Shown here piece by piece: positions 40,001 to 64,000 of a stretch of 64,000 bases of DNA. Source of the stretch: Lingula anatina (Eukaryota > Animalia > Brachiopoda); NCBI GenBank assembly GCA_051362555.1, contig CM120649.1:18428567-18492566 (forward strand). Direction: 5' to 3'. Each line of letters starts with the position of its first letter. Positions within the stretch are counted from its first letter, which is position 1. The notes beneath the pieces are model-generated. The model did not search any database. It was not told the DNA's origin and was given only the letters and a program-made list of their open reading frames with translations. Both the position numbers and the translations under genes were made by a program.

Positions 40001-40726
40001 CATTTTTAAAAACTCATAACAGCGTTTTCTCCAACAGAAAACCAACTAACTTTTCAAAACTTCAGTACCAGAGTTTTAAAGAAATACATACTTATAGAAC
40101 ACTTGGTAACAAACATTTTTTAAAAATAATTTTACTTTATTCATCTTTTTCCATTGGAGAGGTTGCTTAAATTTACAAAGTCATGACCTAACTTAGTAGC
40201 ACATGCATTGTTGCATTAATAAAAATACACCTAAGGGTCTCATAGCATATAATATTCTTAGTTTTAACACTTTACTAATGGCAGTGTGTTATCTATGGAG
40301 GGTATACAGACAGGCATATAGCTTAAGAGAAATTTTGATAGAAACAGAATAGCAATACAAATTTGAAAATAAAAAATTATTTTGTACTACAAATAAATTT
40401 GTAATATCACTTGGTAAATATATTTAAGTAAAGGCATGTATTTTGACAAAGAAAGACAAGGGGATGATGAACTGGCAGTACTGGAAGCATATTTGTTGTC
40501 AAGTGGGGGTTTATCAGCAGCTAGGGCTTTGATTGAAAATAAACATGTTTAGTGTTAGTGGTAAATACTAGTGCCTAGAAATAAAGTTAATTACAACTTC
40601 ATAAAATGTTAAAAATAATCTGATTAGTACTGATATCTGATTAAGTACTTGTAAGTATAAAAATCACTACTTAGTGAAGTATGAACTTGGTAGCGGCATG
40701 GTCAAGTTGACCTTTGCCAGTTACTT

Positions 40727-43700
40727 CCCTTAGCAAAATTTTAAGCTTCCCGCACACTGTTTCTGCGGATGCGCAGCAGATTCACAGTAAGGGTTTCTGC
40801 GGATGCGCAGCACGCCTCATTTGCATGGTAAAATACGCACCTCCTGCACACTCCTTGCACATCTCCTGCAAACTTCCTGCACACCCCCAACACCACAACC
40901 AGCACACTTCTCGCATACCTCCTGCGTACTTCTTGCATACCTTCTGCGTACTTTTTGCACACTTCCTGCGCACATCTTGCACACCTCCTGCGTATGTCTT
41001 GCACACCTCCTGCGTACTTTTTGCACACCTTTTGTGCACTTCTTGCACACCTCCTGCACACTTTTTGCATACTTTGTTGCACACTAATTTAAATATTTTA
41101 TAACACAATTTAAATTTTATTCACTCGTTTTTTCAATCAGTTAATATTAATTCTACAAAGACAGGTTCTGAGTTACATCTAAAGACGTGCCAACAGAAAT
41201 ATTGTAAAATCTGTTTATCAACAACAAACAAGAAATTACGGTCATATATTGTGCTTTATTAATCAAATTAAAAATCGAACAAAATCAGCAAAATCCAAGC
41301 CATGTCCATATTTCTCTTCTTTACATCTTTCTGCCACATTTCTCTTCTTTACTCATCCTGTCCTGCTCCGTCAATCTAAAAAAGAGTATACCATAAAGTC
41401 CTACAAATTTACCACACTGTGCACAATGCTTAACATCCAAATCTTAAACATCCATGTGGAGGACAAAAAAACCATCAATATACACATTACTGTTTGAGAA
41501 GTCCTGAAATCAAGTTCAAGTGTTTATTATTCATATAAAGAAAAGGTTGAAAGGTAGGCAGAAAAATGTCTTGGATATTAAAAAAAAAAAAAAAAACAGT
41601 GCTAAAACTGCTTTGAAGAATACTTTATATACATTCCTCACACATCTATGTTATGTTGAAATCTTAGGGTTTATGGTTGTATTCACTTTTTCACTTATTT
41701 TCAACATATACTTGTTGAATGATGTAATCAGCTTGCAGTTAGTGTTGTTCTCTTTTAAAACTTACTCTGCACAGCTCTTTCAACTAGAGAATCCTTCACA
41801 AAAGAAGCTGTTGCTGACAGTTCTTGTGGGCTGACACAAAAGTACTTGACTTTTTGGTACACTTTGTGAGAGTTTTGATGAGCCACCAACTATAGATATT
41901 CACAGCAAAGTGTCCCTTCCAGTCATGCCAGCTTCTGTATGTTGTCTACTCTCTAGGGTCACCTGAAATAAACAATTATTCAACAAATGTCCATTTGTTC
42001 AAATAACACAGTAAGAGACAAATTTTTTTGAGATTCAACTGCATTTGAAGAAACATTTTGGTGAGCAATTGATCATAGTTTTATAAGAAATTAAGAGACT
42101 AAACAGTGATTGGATTCTATATCCTCGTTTCTTTGTTGGCTAAAAGGGAAGTATACATTATAAATTAAAACTTATTTAATGTAATATAGATATAATGTTT
42201 ACAATGTACACTACAAATTAGATCAATTTTCTCATTTTCAATTTGATTAGATGCCCAAATGATCCAATGCATTACTGTAATACATACCTTCCTCAATCCA
42301 ATTTTTCTACACTCTGTACTCTTCCACTATGCTCCTGAATTAAAACTGGCTTGAATGTAAACAGCCTTCACTCATAAACAAAGACTTAGACAGGATACCA
42401 CACATCTGATAACACCAAATAGGTGGTTGTTGTAACAATAGCTGCAGGAATAGAGACCTAATAATAGGTGCCAGGCTAACAAAAGAAATTCACAGTTGTT
42501 GAATCTGTGGTTGGTGGAGTAAGGCATTCTCTAACATCAGTTGACTGTTAAACCTTGGGCTTAAAGTGTGATTGAGCATGATTTATAATAAAATGTATCT
42601 TTAAAAATATTAATTTGTCCTCGTTTCCCACCCTTTATGAGGGACAGTACTATACCCTTTATGTTCGCTTTCTTTTACATCACATTATATATATTAGGCT
42701 GGATTGAAATTTCACTTTTTAAAACAGCCAAGGTCAAGTAAAATCTGACTATAAGCAAGATTAAAATCTGACTAGATAAGGTTGACTTTCAATAAAATAG
42801 AAGAAATATGAAGTTAGTAAATATCATCATAAAAATACTAAAAATACATTTACTGTGTTTTTATCTTTTTGTGAAAATTAACTAGCAAAGTCAAGATTAT
42901 ACTATCCATGTTTAATTTACCACAACCCTAGATTTTATAACTGTTACATTTCATGACTGACACATCCTAATAATAAGTTGTGATTTAGTGAATGAGTTTA
43001 AAGGGTTGATTAGGCATTTTTCTATTAGATGTTGTTAAACTTATATTGCCCTTGACTTATTCTCATACTTTGAGTGAGGTAAACACCATAGTTTGTTAGA
43101 ACAATACAATTTAAAACTAGCTTTACATAATGTTATTGATTTGTTTGTTGGACTAATTTGGCTGGATTTCTCTCTGGCCTGCGACATACAGTCAATACCC
43201 ACTATAGCTCACAATAGTGTATTATTAATCATAGTGTACTTGCCCCGTATATATGATAATAATTAAAATTTTATATAAACATTGATTATTTCTAATTGAT
43301 TGATATAAAGTAAAATGGGTATTGAAGTATTTTGTTTGTGTAATTGTCAGTGGCATTGCATATACATGTATCTTGTATTGGTACATATTAAATAGTCAAA
43401 TGATAAGGTTTTTACTCTAAAATAGCATACCCCGATAAAATTAAAAGCTTGTTGTATACTCAACTCACACAACTTAAAATTTCTAAGTTTTCTGTACACT
43501 TGTTGCACAATCCTGATGAAAAATTTGAGTTTTCTGCACACTTATGGCAAACTACTGATGAAATTGTAAGTTTATTGCACGCTTTCTGCACACATCTGTT
43601 GAAAAACCAAGTGTCTTGCACATTTTCTGCACACTCATGACAGAAAAATTACATTTTCTGCACACTTGTTGCATACTCTTGATCAAATTTTAAGGTTATC

Positions 43701-46900: not shown

Positions 46901-48374
46901 TTTAGTAGAAAATTCAATCTGCATATAAACAAAAACATAGCACTGGAACTTTATCTCCTGAGAATAAAAACCGACCTTCTCTCTGGTGGTGACAATCATT
47001 CTGCAGTCCTGTTTGTACTGCTTTAACTTTCGGCAGCATATGGCACTGATGTTCATACAGTATACTTGTCAACTACATCTACATGTAGGTATCGCGCCTC
47101 ATTTTCGTCAAGTAGGAGTTGTAAGAATACAACGATATGGCTATGTTCAAATCAAACTTAATGTTAAAAAACATGGTACTGTTTGATTTACTACATAAAA
47201 CAGGAAAAATAGCAGTAGTGCATAAATTTTGATAAGATGCACCACATTCCAAAAAAGAAAAGAAAATATGCAAGTCCCTTGATAATTTGATATGAATATT
47301 GCATCACAACAGTGAGTTATGCTGATTGTAGGGTTTATTATATGGTACACAATAAGAACATAGAATATGGCTCTCTGGTGCAGTTACTGAGTATGTTACG
47401 TTACATGAGGGGTTTTAAAGACAAAGATTGTCGTTTAGTGGTATAAAATACTCCACCTAATTGTATTTTGCTGGGGTTTTGTATATTACTTTCTCTGAAA
47501 AACTCCAAGATTTTAAAACTTTTTCATTCATTCATTCATTCATTCATTCAATGTGCATTCCCCCCCCTCCCCCAGTTCGGTTTACTGTGAATAAAAGCAG
47601 TTTAAACATTCTGAACCTTACACATATATGTATATATTATGGTGCTTATCTGTGATAAGACTGTCAGGTTTTTATTTTCATTTTTAATCATTAATGATAA
47701 CTGTAATACATAACCGTATTAATGCACATTGTAAATTACAGAATCACAGAGTCATAAAAGTCCCCAAAGCTAGGCGAAACTCACAGCAGCAAGTGATGTC
47801 CAATCAGAAGGGAGAAATAGAGCACGTGATCCTCCATCGCTCTGAAGAAATTGTGCGTAAAATCATGCTCCAGATGGCAGACAAGTGCTCAGAGAGTCAC
47901 TGCTCAGCATCCAAAGAGGCTCTGGTCAGTCTTTATAATTGGATATATATAGAGAATTACGCAAGAGCCAGGTGACCAATCATGATAGAGAGGAACAAAA
48001 TAATCAAAATTCTGGCACAGCAGGCAGATCTGAAGAGTGGGAGTTTATTTAGGAGTGCGAGTCTACGGGGTTTGTCATGGTTTTACAACAGATACCACAC
48101 TTGGTGACTTAAACCTCCTTTACACTGGACGCCGTCCTTTATGTGTTCTTTGTGCAACAATGAAACTGGCATCACTGTGGTCATAAAAAGTAGGCACAAG
48201 CATCCTTTTGGTCACAATGCTCATTACTTTTGATTAAAAATTTGCTGAAACATGTAGTACAAGAATGATTCATTTTATTAATCATCTAATAGTGTACACA
48301 TGCATGCCTGATTGCATATCTGTGATGGTTTGCTATACATTTCTTTTATATAGTTGCAAACACTAGTAGTGACT

Positions 48375-48377
<3 letters not shown>

Positions 48378-48443
<66 letters not shown>

Positions 48444-49131
48444 TACCGCGAATAGAAAATAGATTTTTCATGTGAACGGAGTCTTATAGTAAATCTATAA
48501 CATAACAGGAGTAGTACTTTAATGTGGAAAGATTAATTTTTGATACAAAAACTTTATTTGTATACATCTTACAAATGGAATGTGCATATAACTTGTAGTT
48601 ATTAGTAACATTTGATGTACTTAATAACCATACTTGGAATGTTAAACATAATATACTTGTATTATGAATAAAAGTCAGTTATTGTTATGTGCTTCTACAT
48701 CAGTAAAAACAGTGTACAGGGACCGTGCACTTATTACTTTAAGGTTGATACAAAAACCATTATATTTATTTATATTTATTTGTAACCTTCTGATCTATCA
48801 AATTAAAATACTGAAATATAAATCACTATGTATTAATAAAATCTTTTCCTCTTTGCATAAATCTATGCTTCAGTAAAAACAATTTACATATTTGATTGTA
48901 GAAACTATCACAATCACTTAAACCAGAACTTATATGCTGTTTACCATTTACATAAACACACTGTGTAGCATTTGTGATGCTTTTACTGCAGATAATAGAA
49001 CTATAGAGTAGCCTGCTTTTTAATTTTGTTGCTACATGTACCACTCCACGGGAATGTGTTTAATTAAAAAATATGAATAAAAAATACAGTACCTGTAAAA
49101 TTTACAATTTTCCTTGACTGGAAAGATCCAG

Positions 49132-49192
<61 letters not shown>
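48378..49192. repeat. Two (TA)n microsatellites (about 48378-48440 and 49134-49192)
   Basis: Seen directly. Confidence 0.95.
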
Positions 49193-49194
<2 letters not shown>

Positions 49195-49985
49195 CACAAC
49201 TTTGTCAAATGGAAACAACCGTGTACATATCTGTTAAAGTAAAACTCTGCTTAGTATTAAAATCACTACTTTGTGAAGGGTAGATATTATACACTGTATA
49301 TCGCATATATAAAGATATAATTTTAATAAAAAAAGAACATAAAAATAACATCAGTTAAAATATCGCTGAACTGGTGTATATGCCTTCAATACAGCATCAC
49401 ATTTTAAAGCCTTAAAAATTAACGTGCCAATCATTTCACAACCAAAGAATTATGATAAAGTAAAACATGACCAAAGAAATATGGTCAAGTTTTCACATCA
49501 AATGTTCTACCTGAAATGACATATAATACAGTAGTGTTTCTTTATATTTTGGTATATCAACAGTAGACATGGGTGACTTTAGGTAGGTGTTCTCTCTTCA
49601 TCACTTACACAGTTTGTGTTCATCATGCCCCCTGCATAAAACCTTACATGATACACACACATGTGCAGTGCACCATGTACATTAGGCATATTTTCATCTA
49701 ACCTGACAGTGTGTGAATATCAAAAGGTCAAAACTTTCAGTCATTAACCTTTCTATTTTCTCCATCCATAATAATTAAGATAACCGTATTCTTTAACTGT
49801 CTGCTTTTGTCTGTGTTTCTTAAGCAAAATCCCCACACTTCTTGAATCTTAAAAATAGCACTATTGCGTATGTTTGGTCACGCACTTGGTAGCGGCATTG
49901 TCAAAATCACATTTTCCAGTGATGTTGGTTGAAGAAAATGGATCTTTCACAGAGACAAAAAAAAAAATAAAAAAAAAAAAATGAA

Positions 49986-50016
<31 letters not shown>

Positions 50017-50657
50017 AAAAACTCTACGATATAACATCATTATCCTAATGAACTTATTTTTACACCCAAGATATATATTTTGAATGCAAACTGCAAGCTT
50101 TTACATGTATCGATCGCTATATTCATTAATGCTGATCAAAGTAATCATAACTATAAGCACCTTCCCCTCAAAAGAATAAATAAATAAAAAGACTCGCATT
50201 ATAATTAGCTATATAAAAACTAAGTTAAAAGTAACCAACAGGTGTAAATGAGCTTCTTAAGCAAAACAATATTGATAATTAATAATCAATAAATGAAATA
50301 TGTGGTCAATAATAATTATTTCAAAACTCTGCTCAACAGAGTTGAAAATGGACCTTTTAAAAAATCCTGAAAATGCAAGCAACTGTGGTCTGGATTGAGG
50401 GCATAAATACAGCATCACAACACCAAAATATCTGAATACTTTGACTTATCCCTACACAATTTCCTATAGGATGCCCTTCAGGAAAAATGTGCAAAAAGAC
50501 CTGTACAGTGAGGATTTTGGGCAGATGTCCTACAGGGTTTGGTAGGACATCCTATGGGACCATATAGAATATTGGGCCAACTTCCTATAGGACATTCATA
50601 ATTACTGTAAGGGTTCATCTCTAAATCAAGAAAGTGACTTGTCACATATGGTGAGAT

Positions 50658-51056
50658 CTATGCAGCTACTTCAGGACTCTGAATTTGTCTAAGTGCTGGT
50701 TGTTCACCCTGGTATTCATAAGGTCTCATGGCTTCATCTGGGCAATATGACTCCAGCACGTCCTCGGGTTTCACTACCAGAAGATTTGCCAGATCATGTC
50801 GGTCCACTTTAGCAAACCACTGCTGCAGGTGCCTGACAGGATCTTTATCCACTGGGCATTTCAATACCTTATGCAGTAATAGACTCCATTTCTCTGATGA
50901 TATGTGCTGGCGTTTAACTTCCTCCATGTCTGAATAACTAATGATGCTCTTTGAAAAAAGAAAATCTAACAGTCTCTCAATATAAGATCCTTCCTCAGCT
51001 ATGTAGGACAAGTGTTTTTGAAGATTCTCACATCCAACCTCATGAATCCTTGCTTT
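50658..51056 (-). CDS. Terminal exon: CARD-like domain
   Basis: ttttaag|aaa; LQKHLSYIAEEGSYIERLLDFLFSKSIISYSDMEEVK...EKWSLLLHKVLK...RHDLANLL matches the CARD pattern; stop TAG at 50658. Confidence 0.85.
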   Translation of the reverse strand, partial: KARIHEVGCENLQKHLSYIAEEGSYIERLLDFLFSKSIISYSDMEEVKRQHISSEKWSLLLHKVLKCPVDKDPVRHLQQWFAKVDRHDLANLLVVKPEDVLESYCPDEAMRPYEYQGEQPALRQIQSPEVAA

Positions 51057-54000
51057 CTTAAAAACAAGTAATAACTGCTGTACTTAAAAAACATGGCCTT
51101 TATGTCCAAACATGTGCAAAAATATTCTAAAAATAAAAGTAATCCTTGAAATTTAAAGTGAAAATATATTCCTACTTTTTTCTTTTTTCTTCTTACTTCA
51201 AAGCTATCCATAATATGAATTATTTAACCACACTCACAATAAATACAAGTAAAAAGTAAATAAAACAATAATAAAATGATTAAAAACAATGTTTAATGGG
51301 AAAAAAGAAACTTACTCTGACTTCCTCAATCATGATCTCTATATCAGATATTTCAACTATTTCCTTCACTCTCTCGCCAATCCTCCTCAGCAGCCATATA
51401 AGTAGCTGAAAGGAGCACTGCAGATGGCCAAAGACAAATTCCACAGGTTCTTTAGGACAGCAAGCACCCCCTAACTGAAGTTCAAGTACAATAGTCTCCC
51501 ACACCCCTGGAATCTTAAAAATGCCATCCAATTTTGTTTTTGCCTTCAAAGGCAGATATCGCTGTAAAACATGGACATTGGCAGGTAGTGCAGCAGCCAT
51601 CAACTCCCGATCTCCATTCTGATGAATTTCAAGATGGCCTATGTTTTGAACAATAACAGTAGGTTGCACTGCTGTCTCCATGTTTGTTTGCCTTATGCCT
51701 GCATTTAAACCTGGTCTGCCATAGAGCTGAGATAGAGCACACAAGGCCTGTTGGTCTGGAAGTTGTTGCTGTGGGATAAGATTTAGAAACTGCTGATGCT
51801 GTGCATGTTGCTGCTGTTGACACTGCAACTGATATTGTGGTTGCTGAATTTGCTGTTGCTGTTCATTAAGTTCTAGCTGAGATGGTGTTTCAACTATTGG
51901 ATAAGCCTCAGATTCCTTGTTAACTGGTTCTGATAATGGTGCCAACGCAGAGGAAGATGTAACCAGTTGTGGTGCTGGAAACACCGATTCTGCTGTAAGA
52001 TTCATAACTGACTGTTGCTGCAGAGGTTCTGATGTCCCTGGGGCTGAGAGACTCCACTGTGCCTGGTGGGACACCAAGGGGTTCATAACTGACTGTTGCT
52101 GCAGAGGTTCTGATGTCCCTGGGGCTGGGAGATGCCACTGTGCCTGGTGGGACACCAAGGGTTTCATAACTGACTGTTGCTGCAATTGTTCTGATGTCCC
52201 TGTGGCTAGAAGACCCTTCTGTGTATGGTGGGGAGCTGAAGGGTTCAGAACCAAGTGTTGCTGCAAAGGTTCTGATGTGTTCTGTGACTGGTTTCCCCCG
52301 AGGGGCCTCGGATCTTGATGCGACAACTGGAGAGCTTGTATGTTTATTTGTTCAGTGCCAGGTACCTTTGTTATCTGAAAGATAGTAAATTCAGACATCT
52401 GCTTGATGTATTATATAAACAAGGAAAGTGCACGGCGACGGCATCGGCATCGCCATCGGCATCGGCATCGGCGACGACAGACGCAGGTGATGGCAATATG
52501 TACAGACACATCTGTGTCTGTACATAAAAAAGATTTGAATCTGGTACTGGACTTAACAGTTTTACAGTGAATAATTATTATGCAACACAGAGCAGCTTTG
52601 GAAAAGACTACATGGTAACACATTTATGTGAACTAGTAGATCAAAACCCTTCATTCGTCTGAACAATTAAATGTTAAACATAATATGCATACAATGAAAA
52701 TGACAACATGTTTAAACAATAAATAGGCTCCTCAAATAACATGTGAACATAAAAGTTCAATGTCAAAAGTTTGGGCTAGTGATCAACTGCAAACTTTGCA
52801 TGTCTACAAACTGATCGTTAATCAATTAAATTAGTATAATATGAAGCAAAAGGTTTTGGAGAATGATTTTATCAGGCTCTATCCTGGAATTCTTTCCTCA
52901 TTACTCTCTCTCTCTCTATCTAATTTAAAGAAGAAACACTGACACCTCATATATACTGATATATCATTACCTCATGTAGTGGGCGGCTAACTTCAAGCTC
53001 TACTGACGACAGTCTTGCCATTTTACCCTTGAGGCCATTTTGGGCCATCAATATTTTGCTGGTGAAAATTTTAGGGCATGTTCTGCCTTCTGGATTCAAA
53101 GAAAAGGCACAAAACGGTTTGCTGTCATCTATTATCCTCTGGTAATCCAATGCCTAAAATAATTTAAACATTGCCACTAGTGACACTTTGTTTTAAAATG
53201 AAGATAAAAAACATCACAAAAATTTTACCGGTCCACCCAACACACTAATGAAACAAGATGGATAGGAAAGCTCAAACTTATAATACAGCTTTGAAAATGA
53301 GAAGTTATATATGCTCCTAATATCATATTAAACATTAGCAATGGATTGAAAATATGATTATTTGGTGAAATATCACATAAAAGTGTAATGTTATGTGTAC
53401 ATGATAATATTTTCTCTTACTTAATATATCATCTAGTATACCTTTTTATCTTCCCCTGTCAAAGTCCATCCTTGATAGTCCTTTAGAGTGACCAGCACAT
53501 CATGATCATCTTCACATACAATATGGTCATTGTTGTCATGGTCGCCATCCCCTTGGTCACCATCACCTTGGTCACCATCGCTATGGGGACAGATGTAAAG
53601 GTCAAAGTATCCATCAGGCACTATACGCCTCAGACCACTCCTTGTCATCCAACTGTCAAGAACCTGGAACATGTGCAAGCTGGCTATTATTTTGGTATTA
53701 TAATATGAGACTGTTTTATCCAGTGTAAGTTCAGGGACCATTCAGATTGAGAAGAGCCGAGTACTAGTAAGGCAGCGACCTAAATATGGTGGATCTACAT
53801 GAAAGGAAGACTGGTAATCCTGTAATGGTCTTCGCCTTTCACACGCCTCGATCCCCACACGTCGTCCCTGCAGGGCACAGTAATTAAGTCTCAGCTCAAT
53901 TCAACCGGCCGAGGGACAACGCCTGGAGATTATATGTGACCTAAATAAAAGAGATGAGGACACAGGCCATTGCGGTCTAGAAGGAGAATAGGTAATGGTG

Positions 54001-57000
54001 ACTTGTTTCCAGTGCCAGAAAGTGGAGCCGGCATGACCAGCAGAGCCATACAAGATGGGCCGGGACTAAACCCATAAGTACTGCCAGCGTACACGCTGGT
54101 AGTACTAATAACATGCTGGTAAGAAGAAAAATTGTCAAAGACTGTCTCAGCTTGCTTATTGGTGAAAAGCAATAATATGAATCTACTCAAAGAAGCTAAA
54201 TAACCAACACAATTGGCTATTACAGTTATCTCAAGTATTTTCAGCATTATAAACCCTCTTAAATGGACATAGCTAGCACAGTGTGCTAGCTATTGCAATG
54301 TGTCATAATTAACACAATATTTTACCTGCATGGTGTGGCACAGCTTATACAATATATATAGTGTATATCCTCTATGACCTGCCACAACTGACACACGAAA
54401 AAATGAAACAGAATAAATGTACTTTTTGTTTCACACTTGCAAGTGGCATTACCATTATTTCATCCGGAGTATTACTGATGCATTTGACATCAATCTGAAG
54501 CAGCTCTGTCCTAGGATCAAACTCTCCAAATGCTGAGGCCAGCATCTTTTTCTTATTTGATGAAGTGGTGTATTTACACAAGTTCCACAAAGCTGCAGTA
54601 CACCTGCAGAGTGAAAAAGCAGATGAAAATGTGTCCAGACAAACACTTAGCCAGATACTCACAAACAGCTATGAAGCTGAATTTAAATGAGATATTTTAA
54701 ATAAGTCCTTTATAATTAAAATTTACCACAAAGCAAGATATGCTTATAAATGCACTTCCATAGGAAACCCTTACATTCCTTTAAAATCTGTACTACTATT
54801 TTCACCTTCTGAAATGGCTTGCAACTATAATACACATCTTAGCAAAATGTCTCAGAGAATACTTCTTTTGTAAATGCATTTTAATGCTTGTATCAGACAT
54901 TTTATGTCTTTTTTTTTTTAATTCAAATTATAACTTAAACAGTACCACATAAATTCAGTACCTGGTTTGGCTGTAGATAACGACAAAGTCATTCTCATTG
55001 GTTGCCCATTTACAAGTCCCCATTAGGTCAGTTCTTGATGTCCAGAACTTCTTCTCCATCTCTGCATCATCACCATGTGGAATACAGTGAGGAAAACTCA
55101 GATACACTGGTTTCTGAAAGATTAAGTCATGTGGACCAATTACCACAATGGGGCTTGTTCTTGTCTGCTTGCCTCCCAAATGAGGGCTGTCACCTGGTCT
55201 CCAGCTGACTCCAAGGTACATCTCTGTCACTGTACCTTCAGGAAGGGAACCCCCTGGTACCACAAGTGTAACCCCCACTTCCTTTAAGTGAACATAGCCA
55301 CCATGATGGTCCATAGTGAACTTTTGAATGTAGATTCCAGATAAAATCAGTGCCAATTCAAGGTCACCTTTCTCTTTGATTGTGTCTTCCTGAGACAATG
55401 CAGCATCTGTAAAAAATAAAAAAGTAGGTTTACCTATAAAAGATGTGGACTCAAAGCTAAATTGTTTAACTTAAAATTTTGAGTTTGTTACCAAATTTAA
55501 TGACCAAGGCTCAAAATTCAGACTCAAAAATAACTTTTAAATCCTGCCTTTTAAATTATAACATGGCACAAATAAGAGAGGTTTCCATACCTTTTATTTT
55601 ACTAATTGTACTGTATTGTAGATGTCAAAAGTTTTATGCACTCACTTGTAGTATACATATGGACATGCATGCTACTTCTTTCTGTACTTGTCTCAGTTTC
55701 ATGTGCTACTGTCTACGTTATAAATTGGTGGCCATGCATATATAGAGTATTATACGTGTACATTATTTTTAAATGAAATCAATGGTTGCAAGCGAAGAAC
55801 CCTTTTTCTCCTAATGCTGCAACTCACCTTCAGAAAGATCACCGGAGATGAAGTCATCAGAGGCAACCTGATTACAACAAAAATAATGTAAATTTATTAA
55901 TTAGCCTAACATCAACTTTACAGGCACAGACAATAGACAATATAGACAATAAGCAAGCTGAGAAAGTATAGATGCATATCAAAAATGAAAATATGTTAAG
56001 AATAAAGTTGGGTACACTTTTCAGATCTTTTGCATGCCTTCACATACACAATATTTGTGAATCTAGTGTTTATTGCATTTCTGTCAAATATTGAATAATA
56101 TGTACATTTTAGCACAAATAAATATTTTATCACCCCAAAGGCATGTGAATTTCATGGAGATATTTGTGCACCAGTTAACATGTACAATACATTACTGTTT
56201 CATTTTTATTTTCTTGTATGAAATACGAACATTGCTGAAGATGTTTTATAAATACATATCTAATTTTAAACTAATTCAATTGTTTTTTTCCCCCCGACAG
56301 ATGAAATAAAATATATGCTTGACCTAAGATTAGTGGAAATATTTAAGAATCATGTGGACTTACTTCTGAAAATAATGAAGATAAGTCATTCATAATTTCA
56401 GTGTCTAATGACTTGTCACTACCAAGAGATGGAGGTTCTACTGTTGGAGAGTCAGGATATGTGAATCGGGGACCTTGCAACTCGTGTAACCCAGAATATC
56501 CACCTTTTGACAGTTTTTTGCCTTGAAATTTTCCCTCTGACGAGATACCAGGTTTAGTTTGGGAAATAACATCCTCATCTCTGTGCAACTTAGTACTGTG
56601 AGATGCAAATGGACCATGGGCAACAAATTCCATGTACTTTTCTCCTGTTCCTCCCAAAGGTTCTAATATGTACGTTCAAAAAAATATTTAATATTTTTGG
56701 CACACAAACACAGCATGATATTGCAACTTATGACTGAACTGACCATTTTTTTTCATAAATCATGTCTTAAGGCTACAGCATATAATTTCAATGGTGATAT
56801 ATATGATACTCAGAACAACAGTACTAACTATCAGTATTCTGATACTCAAGGAGATTCTGAACTCTTAAATCTAATACGTATCTGTGGCAGCAAAAAGTCT
56901 ATCAATAAAGAACATAATTTTTAAATGCATTTTAACCTTTGATCCTCATTGACAAATGTTTCAAAAATCCTTCTTCTCTGCTATCTATGGGTTTCAAGTG

Positions 57001-57121
57001 TCTCAAGGGCAAAGTTAATTCTCTCAGTTCTTCACTGGTGATGTCTGTATAGACAGGGATGACTTCTTTTTGCTGTGACATTGCCTCATCCAGTAACTCT
57101 TTTGTTTCCCTCTTCAAAATA
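50658..57121 (-). CDS. Multi-exon TIR-ZU5-UPA-Death-CARD protein (UNC5C-like/PIDD-like ZU5-UPA-DD module with a TIR domain and a C-terminal CARD-like domain); 5'-partial
   Basis: Exons 56937-57121, 56364-56662, 55828-55867, 54962-55406, 54453-54603, 53442-53663, 52971-53153, 51316-52374 and 50658-51056 are joined by GT-AG introns with matching phases (1,0,1,2,0,0,0,0). They give about 994 codons with no internal stop. Confidence 0.88.
51316..52374 (-). CDS. Large exon: Q/P-rich repeats followed by a Death-like domain
   Basis: 353 codons, cag|ata...aga|gtaagt. The C-terminal YLPLKAKTKLDGIFKIPGVWETIVLELQL...LLIWLLRRIG resembles a death domain. Confidence 0.85.
52001..52275 (-). repeat. Coding 81-bp tandem repeat (27-aa unit APGTSEPLQQQSVMNPLVSHQAQWSLS), about 3.5 copies
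   Basis: ttcataactgactg recurs at 52001, 52082 and 52163. Confidence 0.9.
52417..52530 (+). mobile_element. Miniature (about 110 bp) HINE-like element in an intron
   Basis: aacaagg 5' end joined to a ggcatc/gacg tract and the 3' hairpin seen at about 23175-23260. Confidence 0.75.
52971..53153 (-). CDS. Exon: UPA-like C-terminal part
   Basis: tag|gca...gag|gtaatg; 61 codons, phase 0-0. Confidence 0.78.
53442..53663 (-). CDS. Exon: UPA-like region with a DGDQG acidic insert
   Basis: cag|gtt...aag|gtatac; 74 codons, phase 0-0. Confidence 0.8.
54453..54603 (-). CDS. Exon: end of ZU5 and start of UPA-like domain
   Basis: cag|g CTAALWNLCKYTTSSNKKKMLASAFGEF...LQIDVKCISNTPDEIM|gtaatg; resembles the UPA 'Kxxx+xxF...lxvxcxxdxxd' motif. 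Confidence 0.8.
54962..55406 (-). CDS. Exon: ZU5 domain
   Basis: DHHGGYVHLKEVGVTLVVPGGSLPEG...SPIVVIGPHDLIFQKPVYLSFPHC is a ZU5 signature. Confidence 0.92.
55828..55867 (-). CDS. 40-nt exon VASDDFISGDLSE
   Basis: cag|gtt...gaag|gtgagt; needed to bridge phase 0 to phase 1. Confidence 0.8.
56364..56662 (-). CDS. Exon: low-complexity linker
   Basis: ag|aa..., donor gaa|gtaagt; phase 1 in, phase 0 out; open frame. Confidence 0.8.
56937..57121 (-). CDS. Exon: TIR C-terminal part (cassette exon 3 homologue)
   Basis: ttttag|t ILKRETKELLDEAMSQQKEVIPVYTDITSEELRELTLPLRHLKPIDSREEGFLKHLSMRIK g|gt; clearly homologous to exon-3 copies at 401, 5767, 7505 and 16519. Confidence 0.85.
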
Positions 57122-57164
57122 CTAAAATAAAGAACCATAATGTGATTTTTGCCATATAAAAAGG

Positions 57165-57180
57165 TGTGTGTTTGTGTGTA

Positions 57181-57231
<51 letters not shown>

Positions 57232-57260
57232 CTCAGAGAAAGAGAAAGAGAGAGAGAGAG
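57165..57260. repeat. (GT)n/(GA)n microsatellite in an intron
   Basis: Seen directly. Confidence 0.95.
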
Positions 57261-58081
57261 GGGGAGACTTTTTTAAAGAATTTATTGACAAATGCAAAAA
57301 CCACAGAAAAAGACAACAGTTACAATTTATGTACTTAAAATAAACACATGATACACATACTGTACAAATATCAGTATATATTGTAAAGAAAATACATACC
57401 TATGCCCAAAGAATACTTCCAGTATTCTTCCAAAAGGCCATTTAAATCTAAAACAACACTTACAATTAAAAACAGAGAAGACAATTACAATACACTTACA
57501 ACTGATAGTACATACTACAAAAATAAACAAACATACAAAAACAAGTTTTTCTAAAAGATATATTTAATCCAATAAATATTTTAATCATGCAAAATCAGAT
57601 TTGATCCCTTTTGGGACCAGATGTACTGAACGCACTAAATCATAGGAAGTTTTCACTCACTATCGTTCACTTACGCTCACTTTCACAAGTAACCTATTGT
57701 TGCATATTGTAAAGGTAATTAACATAATTAACATATCTCCCACAATGTATTGTTTCTTCTCTACCAGTTAGCCAACATACCCACATGTGGCTGGATGTTA
57801 TGTAATAAATGAGTTATATAAAAGTAAACTTAAGTTACATAACAAACAGAAAACTATGACATGGTGTCAGAATCGGGATCTACATTGGATATGTAGTATA
57901 ATTTGGAGATTGGATGACCCACAAACTACAAGATACAAATGGGTTTTGCATCACTAAAAAAAACAAAACAAAACACATGTATGGGATACAGAAGAGTGTG
58001 AATTGATCTTTGAAGGACCTTTAGATGCTGTGTCAGAAGAAAGACAAGTGAAATTTCTTCTCCTTTGAATCGGAGAAAAAG

Positions 58082-60468
58082 TATGGGCGGCCAAAAGGGC
58101 AAAAATTCATGTCGTCCATTCAGTTATATTTCATCAATTCACTGCCTTCCCATCGATTCACTTTCATGTTTAAACGATCCTGTCATAAATTCAACATCTA
58201 CTTTCGTCAATTCAATTGTCAAACATTTCTTATCTACGGTGTATTAAAACCAATGCTGTCATTATTTTCGTTGATCGTGTAACTATTCTCATCGATCGTC
58301 AAACTATTTTCGTCCATCGTGTAACTATTCTCGTCGATCGTCAAACTATTCTCGTCGATCGTCTAACTGTTCTCGTCGATCCTGTTACGTCACCTCATCA
58401 TTCATCGATCGATCACCAGAGGGCGCTGTGGTAGCACATTGGCCTATCACATGACTATCAAAATGGCAGACAACAAAATGATTGCTAGTGAAATAAGAAA
58501 ATTTTCTCAACAATTTCAATTTTAATTGTTAATAATTAAAATATATTCGGTTGTAGGGGCATTATTTTCTAGTTGTTTTCAACTCTGACCATGGCTGGCC
58601 GAGTTAAAAATTACCGCGTGATTGACAGACAGAAGCACGTGTTGCTACCGCAGCGCCCTCTGGCGATCGATCGATGAGACGATCGATGAGAATAGTTAGA
58701 CGATCGACGAGAATAGTTACACAATTGACGAGATTAGTTGGACGATCAACGACAGTGTATGAAATTCAAGGAAATTACTAGCCAGACCGCCGGGCAGGTA
58801 ACTCTGAAAAGCTACCAACCTGGCCATGTAGTTACCTGCCCTAGTTATGATAACCCCTAGAGTTAAGAGAGGTATGCTGAGGGGGTCTAGAATGCATTCT
58901 TGGGAGAGTAATTTGGAAATGAAAGGGCAATATCATGCCTTATGCATGGAAATTTAGAAATTGGTTGGAATTTCTACTGAATGATACCTTGTCAGTGTTG
59001 GATTTAGAGGGGGGGGGGGTCCTGACGCCCCCCTTTTAATTTCTGCAAAAAAAAAAAAACTCACCTCTTGAAATAAGACTTTCACTAGTTGAATCATAGT
59101 TCTAATTAAACCATACCAAATGGCACCATTCACCATCTAAAATACCAAAAATTTTCAGGGCCCTTTAGCGGGCGGGGGAGGGTGGGGGTAGTCAATTCAG
59201 TTTATGTTCACCTTGCAGGCTGTCTCATTTCTTCTTCAATAATTTATTTATAACTTTTATTACGATTTCGTTATATCGTTTGATCATAATTTTTGCTTTT
59301 CTGTATAGCAACAAGTATGACCAAATATATATATTGTTGTTAAATAAATCGATCTCTGTGCTGACAATAAAGAAGAAAGAATTCAGCATGAGGGTCCCTT
59401 TGAATATCGCTTTTAAGCTTTAAAAAGCGGTCGGGAACGGTCCTGCACGCTAATCGCCCATAGACAGTCCTGCAGGGCCCCGTATCTCGAAAGCATTGCT
59501 TATTGAGAATAGCTATATATATATCACATAGAGGCTACAATATATTATATGGGGCGAGTATGGGCGAGTTATTGGATCGAGATGCTTGCGCTCGGTCGCA
59601 ATGCGTGATACTTTCGAGTGACGGTTTTACAAAAAATGTTACCGCTCGACTAATTGCAAATTGAAGTCACCTTAATTTCCATGGGTCCCAATTTGTTCTC
59701 TTTCGTTTGGTTCTCCTTTAATTTGCCTCCGTTGCCTTTATTACTGTTGATTATAAGCACTTCATGTACCTATAAGTCTATTTTATCAATATCATAACTT
59801 TTTATACTTTCACATTTTGATTACTCTCAACCTACAAATTGCTACTCGCGGGATCTCCTCTACACAAAACAATGACGTAACGTTATCTGCTGTGCACTGA
59901 AGCTGGTTAAGAACAATGTGCCTCGTTTCAAGTTGTCTTTCAACTTCATATCACACAGACAGAACTTCGAAAACGAGGCCAATGAGAGGGAGACTGTTGG
60001 TTACATTTCGATACGAGCGTTCGATTGCAAGCTATGGTTAGTTCTTTGCTTCTATGAAAGTGGGTAAAAACAGTGAGTTTATTTTGCTGAAATCGCTTGT
60101 GAACATAGACAAAATAAAAGGTAAAAAATAGGCTGTAAATTAGCCAGCCCGTCGGGCGGGTAATTTGCAAATCTTACCCGCCCGGCCTGAAAGTTACCAG
60201 CCTCGGGCTGGCGGGCAGGCGGCCATTTCATACACTGTCAACGAGATTAGACGATTGACGAGAATAGTTACACGATCAACGAAAATAGTGACAGCACTGG
60301 TTTTAATACACCGTAGATGAGAAATGTTTGACAATTAAATTGACGAAAGTAGATGTTGAATTTATGACAGGATCGTTTAAACTTGAAACTGAATCCATGG
60401 GAAGGAAGTGAATCGACGAAACATAACTGAATCGACGACATGAATTTTTGCCCTTTTGGCCGCCCATA
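58082..60468. mobile_element. IS3EU-like non-autonomous element inside Gypsy gag
   Basis: TATGG...CCATA ends, more than 200-bp TIRs and 6-bp TSD aaaaag. Confidence 0.8.
58753..60237. mobile_element. P/hAT-like element nested in the IS3EU-like element
   Basis: TIR cagtgtatgaaat / atttcatacactg with 7-bp TSD tcaacga. Confidence 0.8.
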
Positions 60469-62880
60469 AAAAAGGCCGCAAAATTGTGAAAACTATTAAC
60501 ATTAATGATCCAGACGTGTTGACCTCGTATTGGCAATAGTTGGAAGAACACACGAAGCCCAAGAGTAACTTTCGAATTCAGAGATTTTAACTTAAAGCAT
60601 GCAGACAAGAAGCAGGTGAGAGCATTGATTCTTTTGTCAGACGAATCAGACTCGTGACAAATGAATGCAAATATACCGATGTTGAACAACACATAATTGA
60701 CACTCTTATTTTTGGCACTAACTCAGAGCAAATTCAGGCAAAATTATTACAAAGAGAGGAATATTTGACACTAGATCATGCAGGCTCTTGTCATTGCACG
60801 AACAGAGAAAGCAACTAAGAAACAGATTGAGGATCTTCACAGCATATCAACAAAGGAAATTCATGCACTACAACCAAGTGGAAACAGTCAAAGAGGGAGA
60901 CCGGCCACTACAGACAGCCACAACATCGCACTCCTCGCCAGCAAACTCAGTCTAAGTTACCAAGCAAACAATGCTCACGACCACCACTACAAGAATGTGG
61001 TAAGTGTGGAACTGAACATGGTTTTCAACAGTGCCCAGCTAAAGGCACAATTTGTCTCAAATGTGGCAAGCCAGATCACTGGAAAAGGGTATTTAGAACA
61101 AAAACAGTAACTGCATCGACCCATAGTAAAACTGTGCATTCAGTAACAAATGAAAGTGACAGTAGCAGTGTATACTTTGACTCTATATATGTAGATAGAA
61201 TTCAATCAAAACAGTCCCCAGTCAAGCCATTTGCTGACATTGAAGTTAAAGCTGAGAACTCTACTTCAACATTACGTTGCAAAATAGACACTGGTGCTAA
61301 GGGAAATGTAATATACCACTGTCTTCTTTCAAAAAACTTGCAATTAAGCAACCACTAAAGCCTACCAATGACAAGATTACTGCATATGGCAGGGTATGAA
61401 ATTTGTATAAATTTGAAGCCGGACAGCAGGGCTGGCAACTTGAAAAGTAGCCAGCCCTGAACAAAAGTAGCCAGTCCTGAATTTTTTTGAAAATTACCTT
61501 TAAAATTGATTAAACCAATTGCAGGCAAGAATGATATTGAAACAGGGACTCTTAGTATCAAAGTGAATTTATTCAAGTAGATTCTTCACTGTCAGCATCT
61601 GAAATGTTATGCTCTGAACCCAAATCGGAAAAGTCTGATTCACTGTGACTGTCATAATCAGAGTCTAGTTGCATGACCCGCTTGTTACAAATGCTCCGTG
61701 GGCATACTTATGAAATCTTTCTGGTTGTTGCCTAGAAATGGTGCAAGTACACTTCGATAGGTCTTGCAAAAAAGTTTGACCTTTTTATTATCAGTCTGAT
61801 CACAAATTAACCAAGAATATTCAGTTTTCCACGATGGCACAACTGATATTTTCCTTTTGCAGGGCTAGACTCTAACTTTAATGAGCACCTGTCCTTTGGA
61901 CAGGTGGTCATAAATTTGACGTGTCTGATTTTGAATACAATCTGTCCATCAAAACCAATTTTTTTCCATTCATACCTCTTGGTGAACTTTGTAAACATTA
62001 ATATGTGTAGTCATACATGTAATGTATTTTTTACCAAGATATTCAGTCAAATGAGCCTGGAAAATGAAGTGGATTTATTTTCAGATAAAAAGTCATTTTT
62101 TCATACTTGTGAACTCCTGAATATTTAATCTTGCATATAAGTCTGATTTAACATGGTTTCGATCAGGGCTTTTCCCAGGGTTTGGGGTACAGGGTCCACT
62201 TATTGTAAATCTGAAACTTGATAACAGATTGACATGAAGTTTAACCAGGTCTTAAAAATATACTGTGAGCTGGAGGTGGTGGTGTTGGTGGTGTTGGTGG
62301 TGGTGGTGGGTGGGGTGGGGGGGGGGGCAGTGTTATATTATTTTATTAAAATATTCAAAATTTATAAAATTTGAATAAATTTCATTAAAAATTGAAGAAT
62401 ATTCATTGTATAATAGTTTACTTATATAAATATCACTTATTTTAAAGTTTTTAAATTGATATTTATATTAACAATTTGCTTTCTTTAGGGGTAACATGTT
62501 TCATTTTTGAATGTACAGTATGAATTAAATAAAATCAGTCATTTAAAAAAATCCCCCTTCTTTTTATTTAAATTCTCATATTTTTATTATTTATTTTTTT
62601 ATTATTTATTTTCTTCCTTACAGCAATACCACATTGGTATATGATAGCACTGCTAATTTATCAAATTCCAGCACTAAATTTTAAACTGTAAATAACACAG
62701 GTGGTGCTAGAGTCATTAAATAAAACATCTTACAAAATTTCAGGTTATGCAAATAAACAACATTTCAACAAGATCTTAAGTCCCAAAGTTTGACTTTCCA
62801 ACTTCAAATGGTTGTGAGGAGAAAGCGTGCAACACATTTGATACACTAGATACATCCAGTCCAATCTGGCTGTTGTGTAG

Positions 62881-63089
62881 TTTAAAAATTATCGACCAAT
62901 ATCAAACTTGCCCTTCTTAGGGAAGTTTCTTGAGAAAATGGCATGTATACAACTGAATAACTATCTAGCTCAAAACAGTCTATATGGCAAGTTTCAATCA
63001 GCTTATAGAGAAGGACATAGCACAGAAACAGCTCTCCTAAGGGTTCATAATGACATCATGCTTTCCTTAGACAAACAAAAAGATGTTAT
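62881..63089 (+). mobile_element. CR1/L2 LINE RT fragment
   Basis: KNYRPISNLPFLGKFLEK...FQSAYREGHSTETALLRVHNDI. Confidence 0.9.
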
Positions 63090-64000
63090 CCCTTAGCAAA
63101 ATTTTAAGCTTCCCGCACACTGTTTCTGCGGATGCGCAGCAGATTCACAGTAAGGGTTTCTGCGGATGCGCAGCACGCCTCATTTGCATGGTAAAATACG
63201 CACCTCCTGCACACTCCTTGCACATCTCCTGCAAACTTCCTGCACACCCCCAACACCACAACCAGCACACTTCTCGCATACCTCCTGCGTACTTCTTGCA
63301 TACCTTCTGCGTACTTTTTGCACACTTCCTGCGCACATCTTGCACACCTCCTGCGTATGTGTTGCACACCTCCTGCGTACTTTTTGCACACCTTTTGTGC
63401 ACTTCTTGCACACCTCCTGCACACTTTTTGCATACTTTGTTGCACACTAATTTAAATATTTTATAACACAATTTAAATTTTATTCACTCGTTTTTTCAAT
63501 CAGTTAACATTAATTCTACAAAGACAGGTTCTGAGTTACATCTAAAGACGTGCCAACAGAAATATTGTAAAATCTGTTTATCAACAACAAACAAGAAATT
63601 ACAGTCATATATTGTGCTTTATTAATCAAATTAAAAATCGAACAAAATCAGCAAAATCCAAGCCATGTCCATATTTCTCTTCTTTACATCTTTCTGCCAC
63701 ATTTCTCTTCTTTACTCATCCTGTCCTGCTCCGTCAATCTAAAAAAGAGTATACCATAAAGTCCTACAAATTTACCACACTGTGCACAATGCTTAACATC
63801 CAAATCTTAAACATCCATGTGGAGGACAAAAAAACCATCAATATACACATTACTGTTTGAGAAGTCCTGAAATCAAGTTCAAGTGTTTATTATTCATATA
63901 AAGAAAAGGTTGAAAGGTAGGCAGAAAAATGTCTTGGATATTAAAAAAAAAAAAAACAGTGCTAAAACTGCTTTGAAGAATACTTTATATACATTCCTCA
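63090..64000. mobile_element. Second, near-identical copy of the 40727 element (runs off the window)
   Basis: Matches 40727-41640 with only a few substitutions; interrupts a LINE RT fragment. Confidence 0.9.

What the first reader, a model, noticed from the sequence alone, without database searches (positions are those of the whole stretch)
50658..57121. Unusual TIR + ZU5-UPA + Death + CARD architecture in one ORF
Seen: nine phase-consistent exons link a TIR C-terminal exon to ZU5, UPA-like, Q-rich, death-like and CARD-like regions. Known: ZU5-UPA-DD is the UNC5/ankyrin/PIDD supramodule; in the PIDDosome the DD recruits the separate DD/CARD adaptor RAIDD. Inference: a fused cytosolic adaptor coupling TIR signalling to caspase recruitment. 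No transmembrane segment is visible in the window. I do not recall this architecture in a characterised protein.
Basis: partly seen in the sequence, partly recalled or inferred. Interest (0 to 1): 0.88.

Follow-up and report, generated by a model that had tools for sequence, protein, structure and literature searches.

The report
Swappable-head death-fold adaptor in Lingula
A gene, likely from a lamp shell (Lingula), splices half of a TIR immune domain onto a ZU5-UPA core followed by a predicted death-fold domain and a CARD; its relatives carry quite different front ends on the same core, and it likely acts as a self-restrained trigger of cell-death proteases rather than as a working TIR adaptor.

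Summary
The nine-exon minus-strand ORF is real: all GT-AG, open for 993 codons. Six of eight junctions appear in RNA reads, and all eight are spanned by a Lingula anatina RefSeq protein. ZU5 is certain. UPA and CARD are well supported through paralogues. The 'death-like' region folds (pLDDT above 90) as a death fold lacking helix 3, subtype unresolved. The TIR claim is only half right. Exon 1 is the last of three TIR exons (61 of about 134 aa); the other two are absent from the 6.9 kb upstream, which is filled with transposon-like DNA. Both available L. anatina models of the closest locus also lack a whole TIR. The wider finding is a Lingula family sharing ZU5-UPA-death fold-CARD behind different heads: C2HC zinc fingers, a HELZ2-like RNB/helicase, DD-CARD, or half-TIR. 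This layout parallels CARD8/NLRP1 and PIDD1. In this branch the self-cleavage motif HF|T has become NL|C, so autoproteolysis is doubtful. Likely role: an autoinhibited activator of CARD caspases in a lineage reported to lack PIDD, ASC and APAF-1. New variant of a known kind; no function tested.

The parts
56937..57121 (-). Exon 1: last (third) exon of a three-exon TIR domain, 61 codons, phase 2 in and phase 1 out; half a TIR only
   Evidence: 76-78% identical to TIR_2 proteins P0003/P0004; 84-85% nt identity to four copies downstream; junction to exon 2 in 2 reads and in P0001
56364..56662 (-). Exon 2: likely disordered spacer, in-frame Met at codon 72 of the model
   Evidence: no Pfam hit; homologous to P0005/P0001; Met positions
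55828..55867 (-). Exon 3: 40-nt acidic spacer exon
   Evidence: phase; junction 3/4 in 13 reads
54962..55406 (-). Exon 4: ZU5 domain
   Evidence: Pfam PF00791 E 2.6e-21; 90% identical to P0001
54453..54603 (-). Exon 5: end of ZU5 and start of UPA; holds the degenerate self-cleavage site
   Evidence: alignment with HF|T-bearing relatives; junctions in reads
54576..54584 (-). Asn-Leu-Cys (model 330-332) at the position of the His-Phe-Ser/Thr/Cys autoproteolysis motif
53442..53663 (-). Exon 6: UPA-like domain with an Asp/Gly-rich loop insertion
   Evidence: P0002 structure matches UPA of UNC5; junctions in reads
52971..53153 (-). Exon 7: C-terminal strands of UPA
   Evidence: P0002 475-518 aligns weakly to UNC5B 3g5b 247-290; junction 6/7 in 23 reads
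51316..52374 (-). Exon 8: about 240-aa low-complexity linker (81-nt unit x2.6 at 52001-52207, Q-rich run), conserved short motif, then the death fold
   Evidence: linker length varies from about 30 to over 400 aa among paralogues
51622..51654 (-). Short hydrophobic motif just before the death fold, kept in the closest paralogues; RHIM-like by eye only
   Evidence: alignment; no Pfam RHIM hit, no RHIM structure hit
51316..51576 (-). Death-fold domain lacking helix 3 (DD-like in sequence, tied PYD/DD/DED in structure)
   Evidence: AlphaFold pLDDT 90 or more over 73 residues; VIA-align top 36 rows death folds, Z 4.4-6.4; hhalign to DD E 0.0017, to CARD 0.23
50658..51056 (-). Exon 9: CARD, short tail and stop
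   Evidence: Pfam CARD E 0.0028; family profile vs CARD alignment prob 96%, E 1.5e-9; acceptor 51056 in 2 reads
57122..57830 (-). Remnant of the intron that lies between TIR exons 2 and 3 in the intact copies
   Evidence: blastn hits E 1e-8 to 1e-3 up to about 57530; collinear alignment score 168-217 vs controls 50-101, the exon-adjacent end included
57950..61358 (+). Broken retrotransposon-like gag/protease frames interrupting that intron, with a nested 2.4-kb element (58082-60468) that has inverted ends and TA flanks
   Evidence: inverted ends 93%; 8 reads skip 58075-60469; frames; the gypsy label is recalled from motifs, Pfam gave no hit

Best explanation
This is an expressed gene, likely of Lingula, whose ZU5-UPA core, predicted death fold and CARD likely form a self-restrained cytosolic activator of CARD-bearing caspases, while the TIR-derived exon is likely a swapped-in head fragment and not a working TIR. 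Shown: the exon chain, the domains, and a family in which the same core and death fold-CARD tail follow different heads (C2HC zinc fingers, HELZ2-like RNB/helicase, DD-CARD, half-TIR). Inferred step 1: ZU5-UPA holds the tail inactive, as the UNC5B and CARD8/NLRP1 supramodules do. Inferred step 2: an event at the head or the disordered spacer (binding, cleavage or degradation) frees the tail. In family members with HF|T this probably follows self-cleavage; in this NL|C branch it is more likely a conformational opening or an outside protease, with weak Cys-based cleavage possible. Inferred step 3: the death fold-CARD pair, joined without a linker, polymerises and recruits a CARD caspase directly, doing the work of PIDD plus RAIDD or sensor plus ASC in one chain. 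The likely partner is caspase-Y. The head was likely gained by phase-1 exon shuffling from the neighbouring multi-TIR array.
For: Exon chain and splicing. Domains. Family with different heads, all named L. anatina: XP_013381088 zf-C2HC + ZU5, XP_023931638 RNB + SF1 helicase + ZU5, XP_013381545 Death + CARD + ZU5, XP_013411131 half-TIR + ZU5. Profiles built without P0014 and P0017 found the death fold of P0014 (E 5e-6) and the CARDs of both (1.4e-11, 2.2e-5). Atlas neighbours of P0002 are ZU5-UPA-DD and FIIND-CARD/CARD8 clusters. Similarity to the TIR array ends at the exon-1 donor: downstream 200 nt score -4.5 to 14 (random pairs up to 9.5), against 26-371 among array copies. No TIR exon 1 or 2 upstream in the window. 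PMC11463336 passages report no PIDD or PYCARD in lophotrochozoans, no APAF-1 in brachiopods, and loss of caspase-2 with six caspase-Y paralogues in Lingula.
Against: No functional data exist. The self-cleavage motif has lost His and Phe; PMC3210808 calls that Phe a structural anchor and notes that UNC5b has Leu there, so a CARD8-style release is doubtful for this gene. The window ends 6.9 kb upstream, and TIR exons in the adjacent array lie 7.4 and 9.1 kb apart, so a whole TIR may lie just outside. Exon 1 is intact, with dN/dS 0.25, 0.39, 0.57 and 1.17 against the four copies, as expected if it still mattered. The family clade has weak support (SH-aLRT 83-84, quick tree). Death-fold Z scores are middling. 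CARD-fold proteins can also be inhibitors or NF-kB scaffolds.
Confidence: 0.5

Rival explanations
1. The gene has one or more complete TIR domains whose first two exons lie beyond position 64000, pushed away by transposon insertions. The protein would then be a true TIR-ZU5-UPA-death fold-CARD adaptor linking TIR assemblies to CARD caspases.
For: Most of the intron that precedes this exon in intact units is still present before the insertions. Introns of 7.4 and 9.1 kb separate TIR exons in the adjacent array. Exon 1 is open and begins in phase 2, so it needs an upstream exon. dN/dS is under 1 in 3 of 4 comparisons.
Against: No TIR exon 1 or 2 in 57122-64000. P0001 starts at a Met inside this exon and P0005 has a CARD there. 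None of the 146 further hits of the P0002 search matched my TIR profile or showed a Pfam TIR (one search shows only the best five families per protein).
Confidence: 0.28
2. The TIR exon is an incidental leftover of a segmental duplication or read-through next to the TIR array. Translation starts at a later Met (codon 14, 58 or 72), and the protein is a headless ZU5-UPA-death fold-CARD, possibly a drifting duplicate.
For: Only 2 reads cross junction 1/2, against 9-23 at inner junctions. Two annotations of the closest locus disagree about the head. Headless or partial family members exist: P0011, P0012, P0049. The donor is weak by eye (GTTAAA).
Against: The same junction stands in RefSeq P0001 and in the window gene, whose proteins are only about 67% identical over this half, so it has persisted. 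Frames are intact throughout. PolyA libraries thin out towards 5' ends (general knowledge).
Confidence: 0.12
3. The protein is a scaffold or inhibitor in NF-kB or death signalling (like UNC5CL, or the inhibitory role of CARD8) that mops up DD- or CARD-bearing partners rather than activating a caspase; the half-TIR could act as a dominant-negative surface.
For: The cleavage motif is degenerate. The top Atlas hit is a ZU5-UPA-DD cluster and an UNC5CL cluster matches by structure. CARD8 has inhibitory isoforms (PMC11202080 passages).
Against: A tandem death fold-CARD tail that recurs, even twice in one protein (P0012), and sits behind nucleic-acid-handling heads fits an effector output better. 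No test either way.
Confidence: 0.1

Closest known systems
CARD8 / NLRP1 (FIIND = ZU5-UPA, then CARD)
   Same: Variable or disordered head, ZU5-UPA, C-terminal CARD, no membrane anchor; Atlas feature neighbours of paralogue P0002 include CARD8 and FIIND-CARD clusters at 0.88-0.89.
   Different: Pfam FIIND not hit, ZU5 is the UNC5/ZO-1 type; an extra death fold and a long linker lie between UPA and CARD; the motif is NL|C rather than SF|S; no NACHT-LRR.
PIDD1 + RAIDD (PIDDosome)
   Same: ZU5-UPA followed by a death fold; a CARD to recruit a caspase.
   Different: One ZU5, no LRR, no HF|S; death fold and CARD lie in one chain instead of two proteins; PIDD reported absent from lophotrochozoans and caspase-2 absent from Lingula (PMC11463336).
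UNC5 receptors and UNC5CL (ZU5-UPA-DD supramodule)
   Same: Best structural matches of P0002; Leu at the Phe position as in UNC5b; DD-like Trp pattern. UniRef names the paralogues 'Netrin receptor UNC5'.
   Different: No Ig/TSP1 ectodomain or transmembrane helix; added CARD; falls outside the UNC5 clade (98*) in the quick tree, so the UniRef name is a mislabel.
MyD88 (DD-TIR adaptor)
   Same: TIR-derived sequence and a death fold in one chain; MyD88 DD among the structural matches (Z 5.8).
   Different: Opposite order, only half a TIR, and ZU5-UPA plus CARD present.
Tandem DEDs (caspase-8, vFLIP)
   Same: Two death folds joined without a linker, the first lacking helix 3 (PMC11874512 passage; model).
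   Different: The second domain here is a CARD; rigidity of the pair was not modelled.

Membership tests
TIR-domain adaptor (MyD88/TIRAP type) | A complete TIR domain of about 135 aa with its N-terminal strands and BB loop | tested here: inconclusive
   Only the last of three TIR exons is in the window; the other two were not found in 57122-64000 but could lie beyond it; annotated homologues lack them.
TIR-domain adaptor (MyD88/TIRAP type) | Exon 1 is TIR-derived and spliced in frame | tested here: met
ZU5-UPA-DD supramodule proteins | ZU5 domain | tested here: met
   Pfam E 2.6e-21
ZU5-UPA-DD supramodule proteins | UPA domain directly after ZU5 | tested here: met
   Through paralogue P0002 (65% identical): Atlas structure rows 1-2 meet the bar for PF17217; weak Pfam UPA in P0014; no Pfam hit on the window exons themselves
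ZU5-UPA-DD supramodule proteins | Death fold after UPA | tested here: met
   superfamily level only
Death domain (DD) subfamily | DD rather than PYD, DED or CARD | tested here: inconclusive
   Structure: PYD Z 6.0-6.4, DD 5.7-5.8, DED 5.5-5.6, tied. Sequence: DD E 0.0017, prob 16%; no Pfam Death hit.
UNC5 netrin receptors | Ig and TSP1 ectodomain with a transmembrane helix | tested here: not met
   No hydrophobic segment above 1.42; no such Pfam hits in window exons or P0001/P0002/P0005
PIDD1 | LRRs and two ZU5 domains with HF|S sites | tested here: not met
   One ZU5, no LRR; NL|C at the site
CARD8/NLRP1 FIIND sensors | ZU5-UPA followed by a C-terminal CARD | tested here: met
   with a death fold and linker inserted
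CARD8/NLRP1 FIIND sensors | Pfam FIIND (PF13553) and an intact Phe|Ser-type self-cleavage motif | tested here: not met
   No FIIND hit; NL|C in the window, P0001 and P0002; HF|T in Lingula relatives P0014 and P0017
CARD8/NLRP1 FIIND sensors | Autoproteolysis, DPP9 restraint and release by degradation of the head | not testable with these tools
   needs protein expression
RHIM-bearing adaptors (RIPK1/IMD type) | A RHIM before the death fold | tested here: inconclusive
   A conserved motif sits there, but Pfam and PDB gave no RHIM hit; the RHIM core tetrad (recalled) is not matched; short queries are insensitive

The most novel reading that the evidence does not exclude
Lingula has built its own family of inflammasome-like tripwire sensors, independently of vertebrate CARD8/NLRP1: a fixed ZU5-UPA-death fold-CARD output module with exchangeable baits (zinc fingers, a HELZ2-like RNase/helicase, DD-CARD, TIR). 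This gene is a recent TIR-bait recruit, whole or half, that guards TIR signalling and fires caspase-Y without PIDD, RAIDD or ASC.
Probability: 0.25. Interest if true: 0.8.

Novelty: new variant of a known kind. Interest (0 to 1): 0.55.

Why it matters
Lophotrochozoans are reported to lack PIDD, PYCARD and, in brachiopods, APAF-1, so what activates their expanded CARD caspases is an open question. This family is a concrete candidate that sits in RefSeq as 'uncharacterized' or mislabelled as UNC5. It offers a natural experiment: one output module, several heads, and sister branches with (HF|T) and without (NL|C) the self-cleavage motif. That makes it testable whether head-swapping tripwire sensing of the CARD8/NLRP1 kind arose separately in invertebrates. 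The window also catches an exon-shuffling breakpoint beside its likely donor, a four-TIR array. The caveat is that novel immune domain combinations are common in marine invertebrates, and the headline TIR is not a whole domain on present evidence.

Tried and rejected
No whole genome is held for this window, so nothing upstream of 64000 could be read. The run search listed no RNA holder; the runs laid came by species label. A closer read view of the 5' end was not obtained, so the exon upstream of exon 1 stays unknown. Single-sequence AlphaFold of P0002 failed (mean pLDDT 34) and was not used. Foldseek on the death-fold model gave no match at E 0.001 or better (top row a CARD, E 2.9). The Atlas had no usable hit for the window's death fold alone. 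An apparent decayed TIR exon 2 at 57980-58080 was rejected: it reads as retrotransposon-like gag on the + strand, continuous with 60469 onward once the nested element is removed. Weak matches suggesting a clean deletion of TIR exon 2 (E 8e-4 to 0.03) conflicted with the collinear alignment and were dropped. A 48-nt AG/GT-bounded segment at 57447-57400 could splice in phase to exon 1, but it is not TIR-like and read depth there is 0-0.3; left unsupported. RHIM: no Pfam or PDB support. My first exon boundaries and first array boundaries were off by a few bases and were corrected. The careful tree did not finish; only the quick tree is cited. The scan's earlier findings gave nothing. No complex was predicted: no Lingula caspase sequence was in hand.
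Full report
1. The gene model. Exons are 38-47% GC; seven of eight introns are 23-35% GC and one is 42%. The highest 19-residue hydropathy is 1.42, so no membrane anchor is visible. The closest proteins are named Lingula anatina by their sources: P0001 (XP_013411131; 90% over the ZU5 exon) and P0002 (XP_013381545; 74%). The organism is therefore inferred to be a Lingula. P0001 aligns across all eight junctions, although its exon-2 part is about 75 aa shorter.

2. Expression. Four RNA runs were laid on 48000-64000. Most reads are 90-99% alike, so they come from another population or from paralogues, not from this exact allele. Listed joints match introns 3/4 (13 reads), 4/5 (14), 5/6 (9) and 6/7 (23). 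Two reads join exon 1 to exon 2 with seven differing letters that fit P0001, and two reads use the exon-9 acceptor. Junctions 2/3 and 7/8 are not among the rows shown; 12 rows were hidden. In the two runs that look stranded, first mates over the exons lie on +, which in most libraries means minus-strand RNA.

3. Domains. ZU5: Pfam E 2.6e-21. UPA: no Pfam hit on single exons, but the Atlas model of P0002 (65% identical to the window over this region) matches UNC5 UPA and meets the naming bar in 2 of 10 rows. CARD: E 0.0028 on exon 9, above cut-off in P0011 and P0012; the family profile matches a CARD alignment at 96%, E 1.5e-9. The region before the CARD has no Pfam hit. Folded from the window's own exon 8 with a nine-row alignment, it gives six helices with pLDDT 90 or more over 73 residues. 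Against 48,161 chains, the top 36 of 50 rows shown are death folds (two of them judged from entry title and range): PYD Z 6.0-6.4, MyD88 and UNC5H2 DD 5.7-5.8, DED 5.5-5.6, rmsd about 3 A over 70-79 residues. These Z values are middling and tied, and Foldseek found nothing significant. Sequence leans to DD (E 0.0017, against 0.23 for CARD and 0.27 for a reversed control). Helix 3 is replaced by a loop, and the CARD follows with no linker, which recalls tandem DEDs (PMC11874512, passage seen).

4. The TIR. Exon 1 finds P0003 and P0004, which carry Pfam TIR_2 (E 7e-25, 3e-6). The window itself shows how this TIR is built. Downstream, on the same strand, lies an array of three-exon TIR units (69-75, 139 and 188 nt). 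Four units join to open frames of 131-133 aa. The focal exon is the third type only, 61 aa. Profiles of exon types 1 and 2 find 5 and 4 intact copies below 31 kb and none in 57122-64000. The preceding intron can be followed to about 57530-57830, then transposon-like DNA takes over. Similarity to the array stops at the donor: the next 200 nt score at background, unlike array pairs. That places a shuffling breakpoint in a phase-1 intron. P0001 begins at a Met inside this exon. P0005, a second model in the same cluster, has a CARD spliced to the same exon-2 acceptor. Against this reading, introns of 7.4 and 9.1 kb occur in the array, the exon is intact, and dN/dS is below 1 in 3 of 4 non-independent comparisons. 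A whole TIR beyond the window keeps about a 28% chance.

5. The family. phmmer of P0002 against 1.84 billion representatives gave 406 hits, 150 listed. The closest named ones with this core are L. anatina proteins: P0014 (C2HC zinc fingers-ZU5-UPA-death fold-CARD), P0017 (HELZ2-like RNB and SF1 helicase, then the same core and tail), P0019 (ZU5-UPA, no tail seen) and P0049 (tail only). P0002 has DD-CARD in front, P0012 has the tail twice, and P0011 is linker plus tail. All 146 further hits were scanned with Pfam and with my TIR profile; none showed a TIR. Outside the family, ZU5-UPA-DD also follows Rel-homology, SH2 and NACHT heads, so head variation is a wider habit of this module. A quick tree of 83 ZU5-UPA rows (those matching 130 or more profile positions; P0005 left out) groups the window, P0001 and P0002 at 96. 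It adds P0014, P0017 and a long-branch row at only 83, and keeps UNC5 receptors apart at 98.

6. The cleavage site. The window's Asn-Leu-Cys (330-332) aligns with His-Phe-Thr in P0014, P0015, P0016 and P0017, His-Phe-Cys in P0018 and Gln-Phe-Cys in P0019. Of 151 aligned rows, 63 were gapped there; of the other 88, 51 read HF plus Ser, Thr or Cys and 3 read NLC. PMC3210808 (passages) says Ser, Thr or Cys can be the nucleophile, that the His position matters little in CARD8, that Phe-to-His severely impairs cleavage, and that UNC5b has Leu at that place. So a nucleophile remains but cleavage is doubtful. If it occurs, the C-terminal piece would be 662 aa, about 75 kDa.

7. Mechanism. Shown: splicing, domains, family, motif change. 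Inferred from CARD8/NLRP1 (PMC11202080 passages), PIDD1 (PMC7883297 passages) and recalled UNC5B structure: ZU5-UPA restrains the tail, an event at the head frees it, and the death fold-CARD pair nucleates a CARD caspase. PMC11463336 (passages) reports no PIDD or PYCARD in lophotrochozoans, no APAF-1 in brachiopods, and six caspase-Y paralogues but no caspase-2 in Lingula; caspase-Y or RAIDD are the likely partners. I put 0.5 on this with a half-TIR head, 0.28 on a full-TIR adaptor, 0.12 on an incidental exon and 0.1 on an inhibitor or scaffold.

8. Novelty. Nine literature searches (listings and abstract starts seen) showed no paper on this architecture or family. PMC8195603 (passages) describes many immune fusions in brachiopods and UPA-ZU5 fusions to TRADD-N; its source-data files were not read and may list these proteins. 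PMC4262963 (passages) describes invertebrate RHIMs beside death folds. A 2018 survey of the Lingula immune system by Gerdol and colleagues is recalled, did not appear in the listings, and may cover them. The proteins are already in RefSeq, unnamed or mislabelled as UNC5. Every part is a known domain and the logic has vertebrate parallels, so this is a new variant of a known kind.

Noticed in passing
window 401-36642, - strand: A tandem multi-TIR gene: four three-exon TIR units join to open frames (29544 or 30504/25949/16706; 16004/8520/7692; 7030/6634/5954; 1719/1274/588), preceded by two exon-1-like heads at 36640 and 36324 that match the start of P0003 (XP_013392269, two TIRs) at 85-97%. It runs towards the window's lower edge.
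   Followed up: partly
window 401, 5767, 7505, 16519: Each array copy of TIR exon 3 can either splice on in phase 1 or read six codons into the intron to a conserved stop, which would give isoforms with one to four TIRs. The focal exon has lost this alternative end.
   Followed up: no
window 25250-25300 and 33329-33427, - strand: Decayed TIR array parts: an exon-3 acceptor followed by deleted sequence, and a truncated exon 2.
   Followed up: partly
P0017 (XP_023931638): A HELZ2-like RNB + SF1 helicase fused to ZU5(HF|T)-UPA-death fold-CARD: the strongest candidate in the family for an RNA-sensing, self-cleaving sensor.
   Followed up: partly
P0027, P0031, P0079: Rel-homology domain proteins with ZU5-UPA(-DD) tails in place of ankyrin repeats, one also with a kinase domain; an unusual NF-kB-like architecture, organisms not looked up.
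   Followed up: no
window 58082-60468: 2.4-kb TA-flanked element with 220-nt inverted ends (93%), nested in a retrotransposon-like gag; 8 reads of one run show the empty site.
   Followed up: partly
window 40726-41640 and 63089-64000: Two 99.3% identical copies of a repeat with odd Cys/His-rich open frames; no Pfam hit.
   Followed up: partly
window 57400-57447, - strand: A 48-nt segment with good AG and GT borders inside an insertion in the intron before exon 1; could splice in phase, no read support.
   Followed up: partly
window 8741-10357, + strand: Broken reverse-transcriptase element (Pfam RVT_1 E 1.6e-6) inside a 7.4-kb intron of the TIR array.
   Followed up: no
window 52419-52531: A high-copy short repeat in intron 7 draws very deep RNA coverage with loose ends.
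   Followed up: no
cluster of P0001: Four 43-44 aa unnamed members (P0006-P0009) show no similarity to the model, so the cluster's member count of 6 overstates the family.
   Followed up: yes
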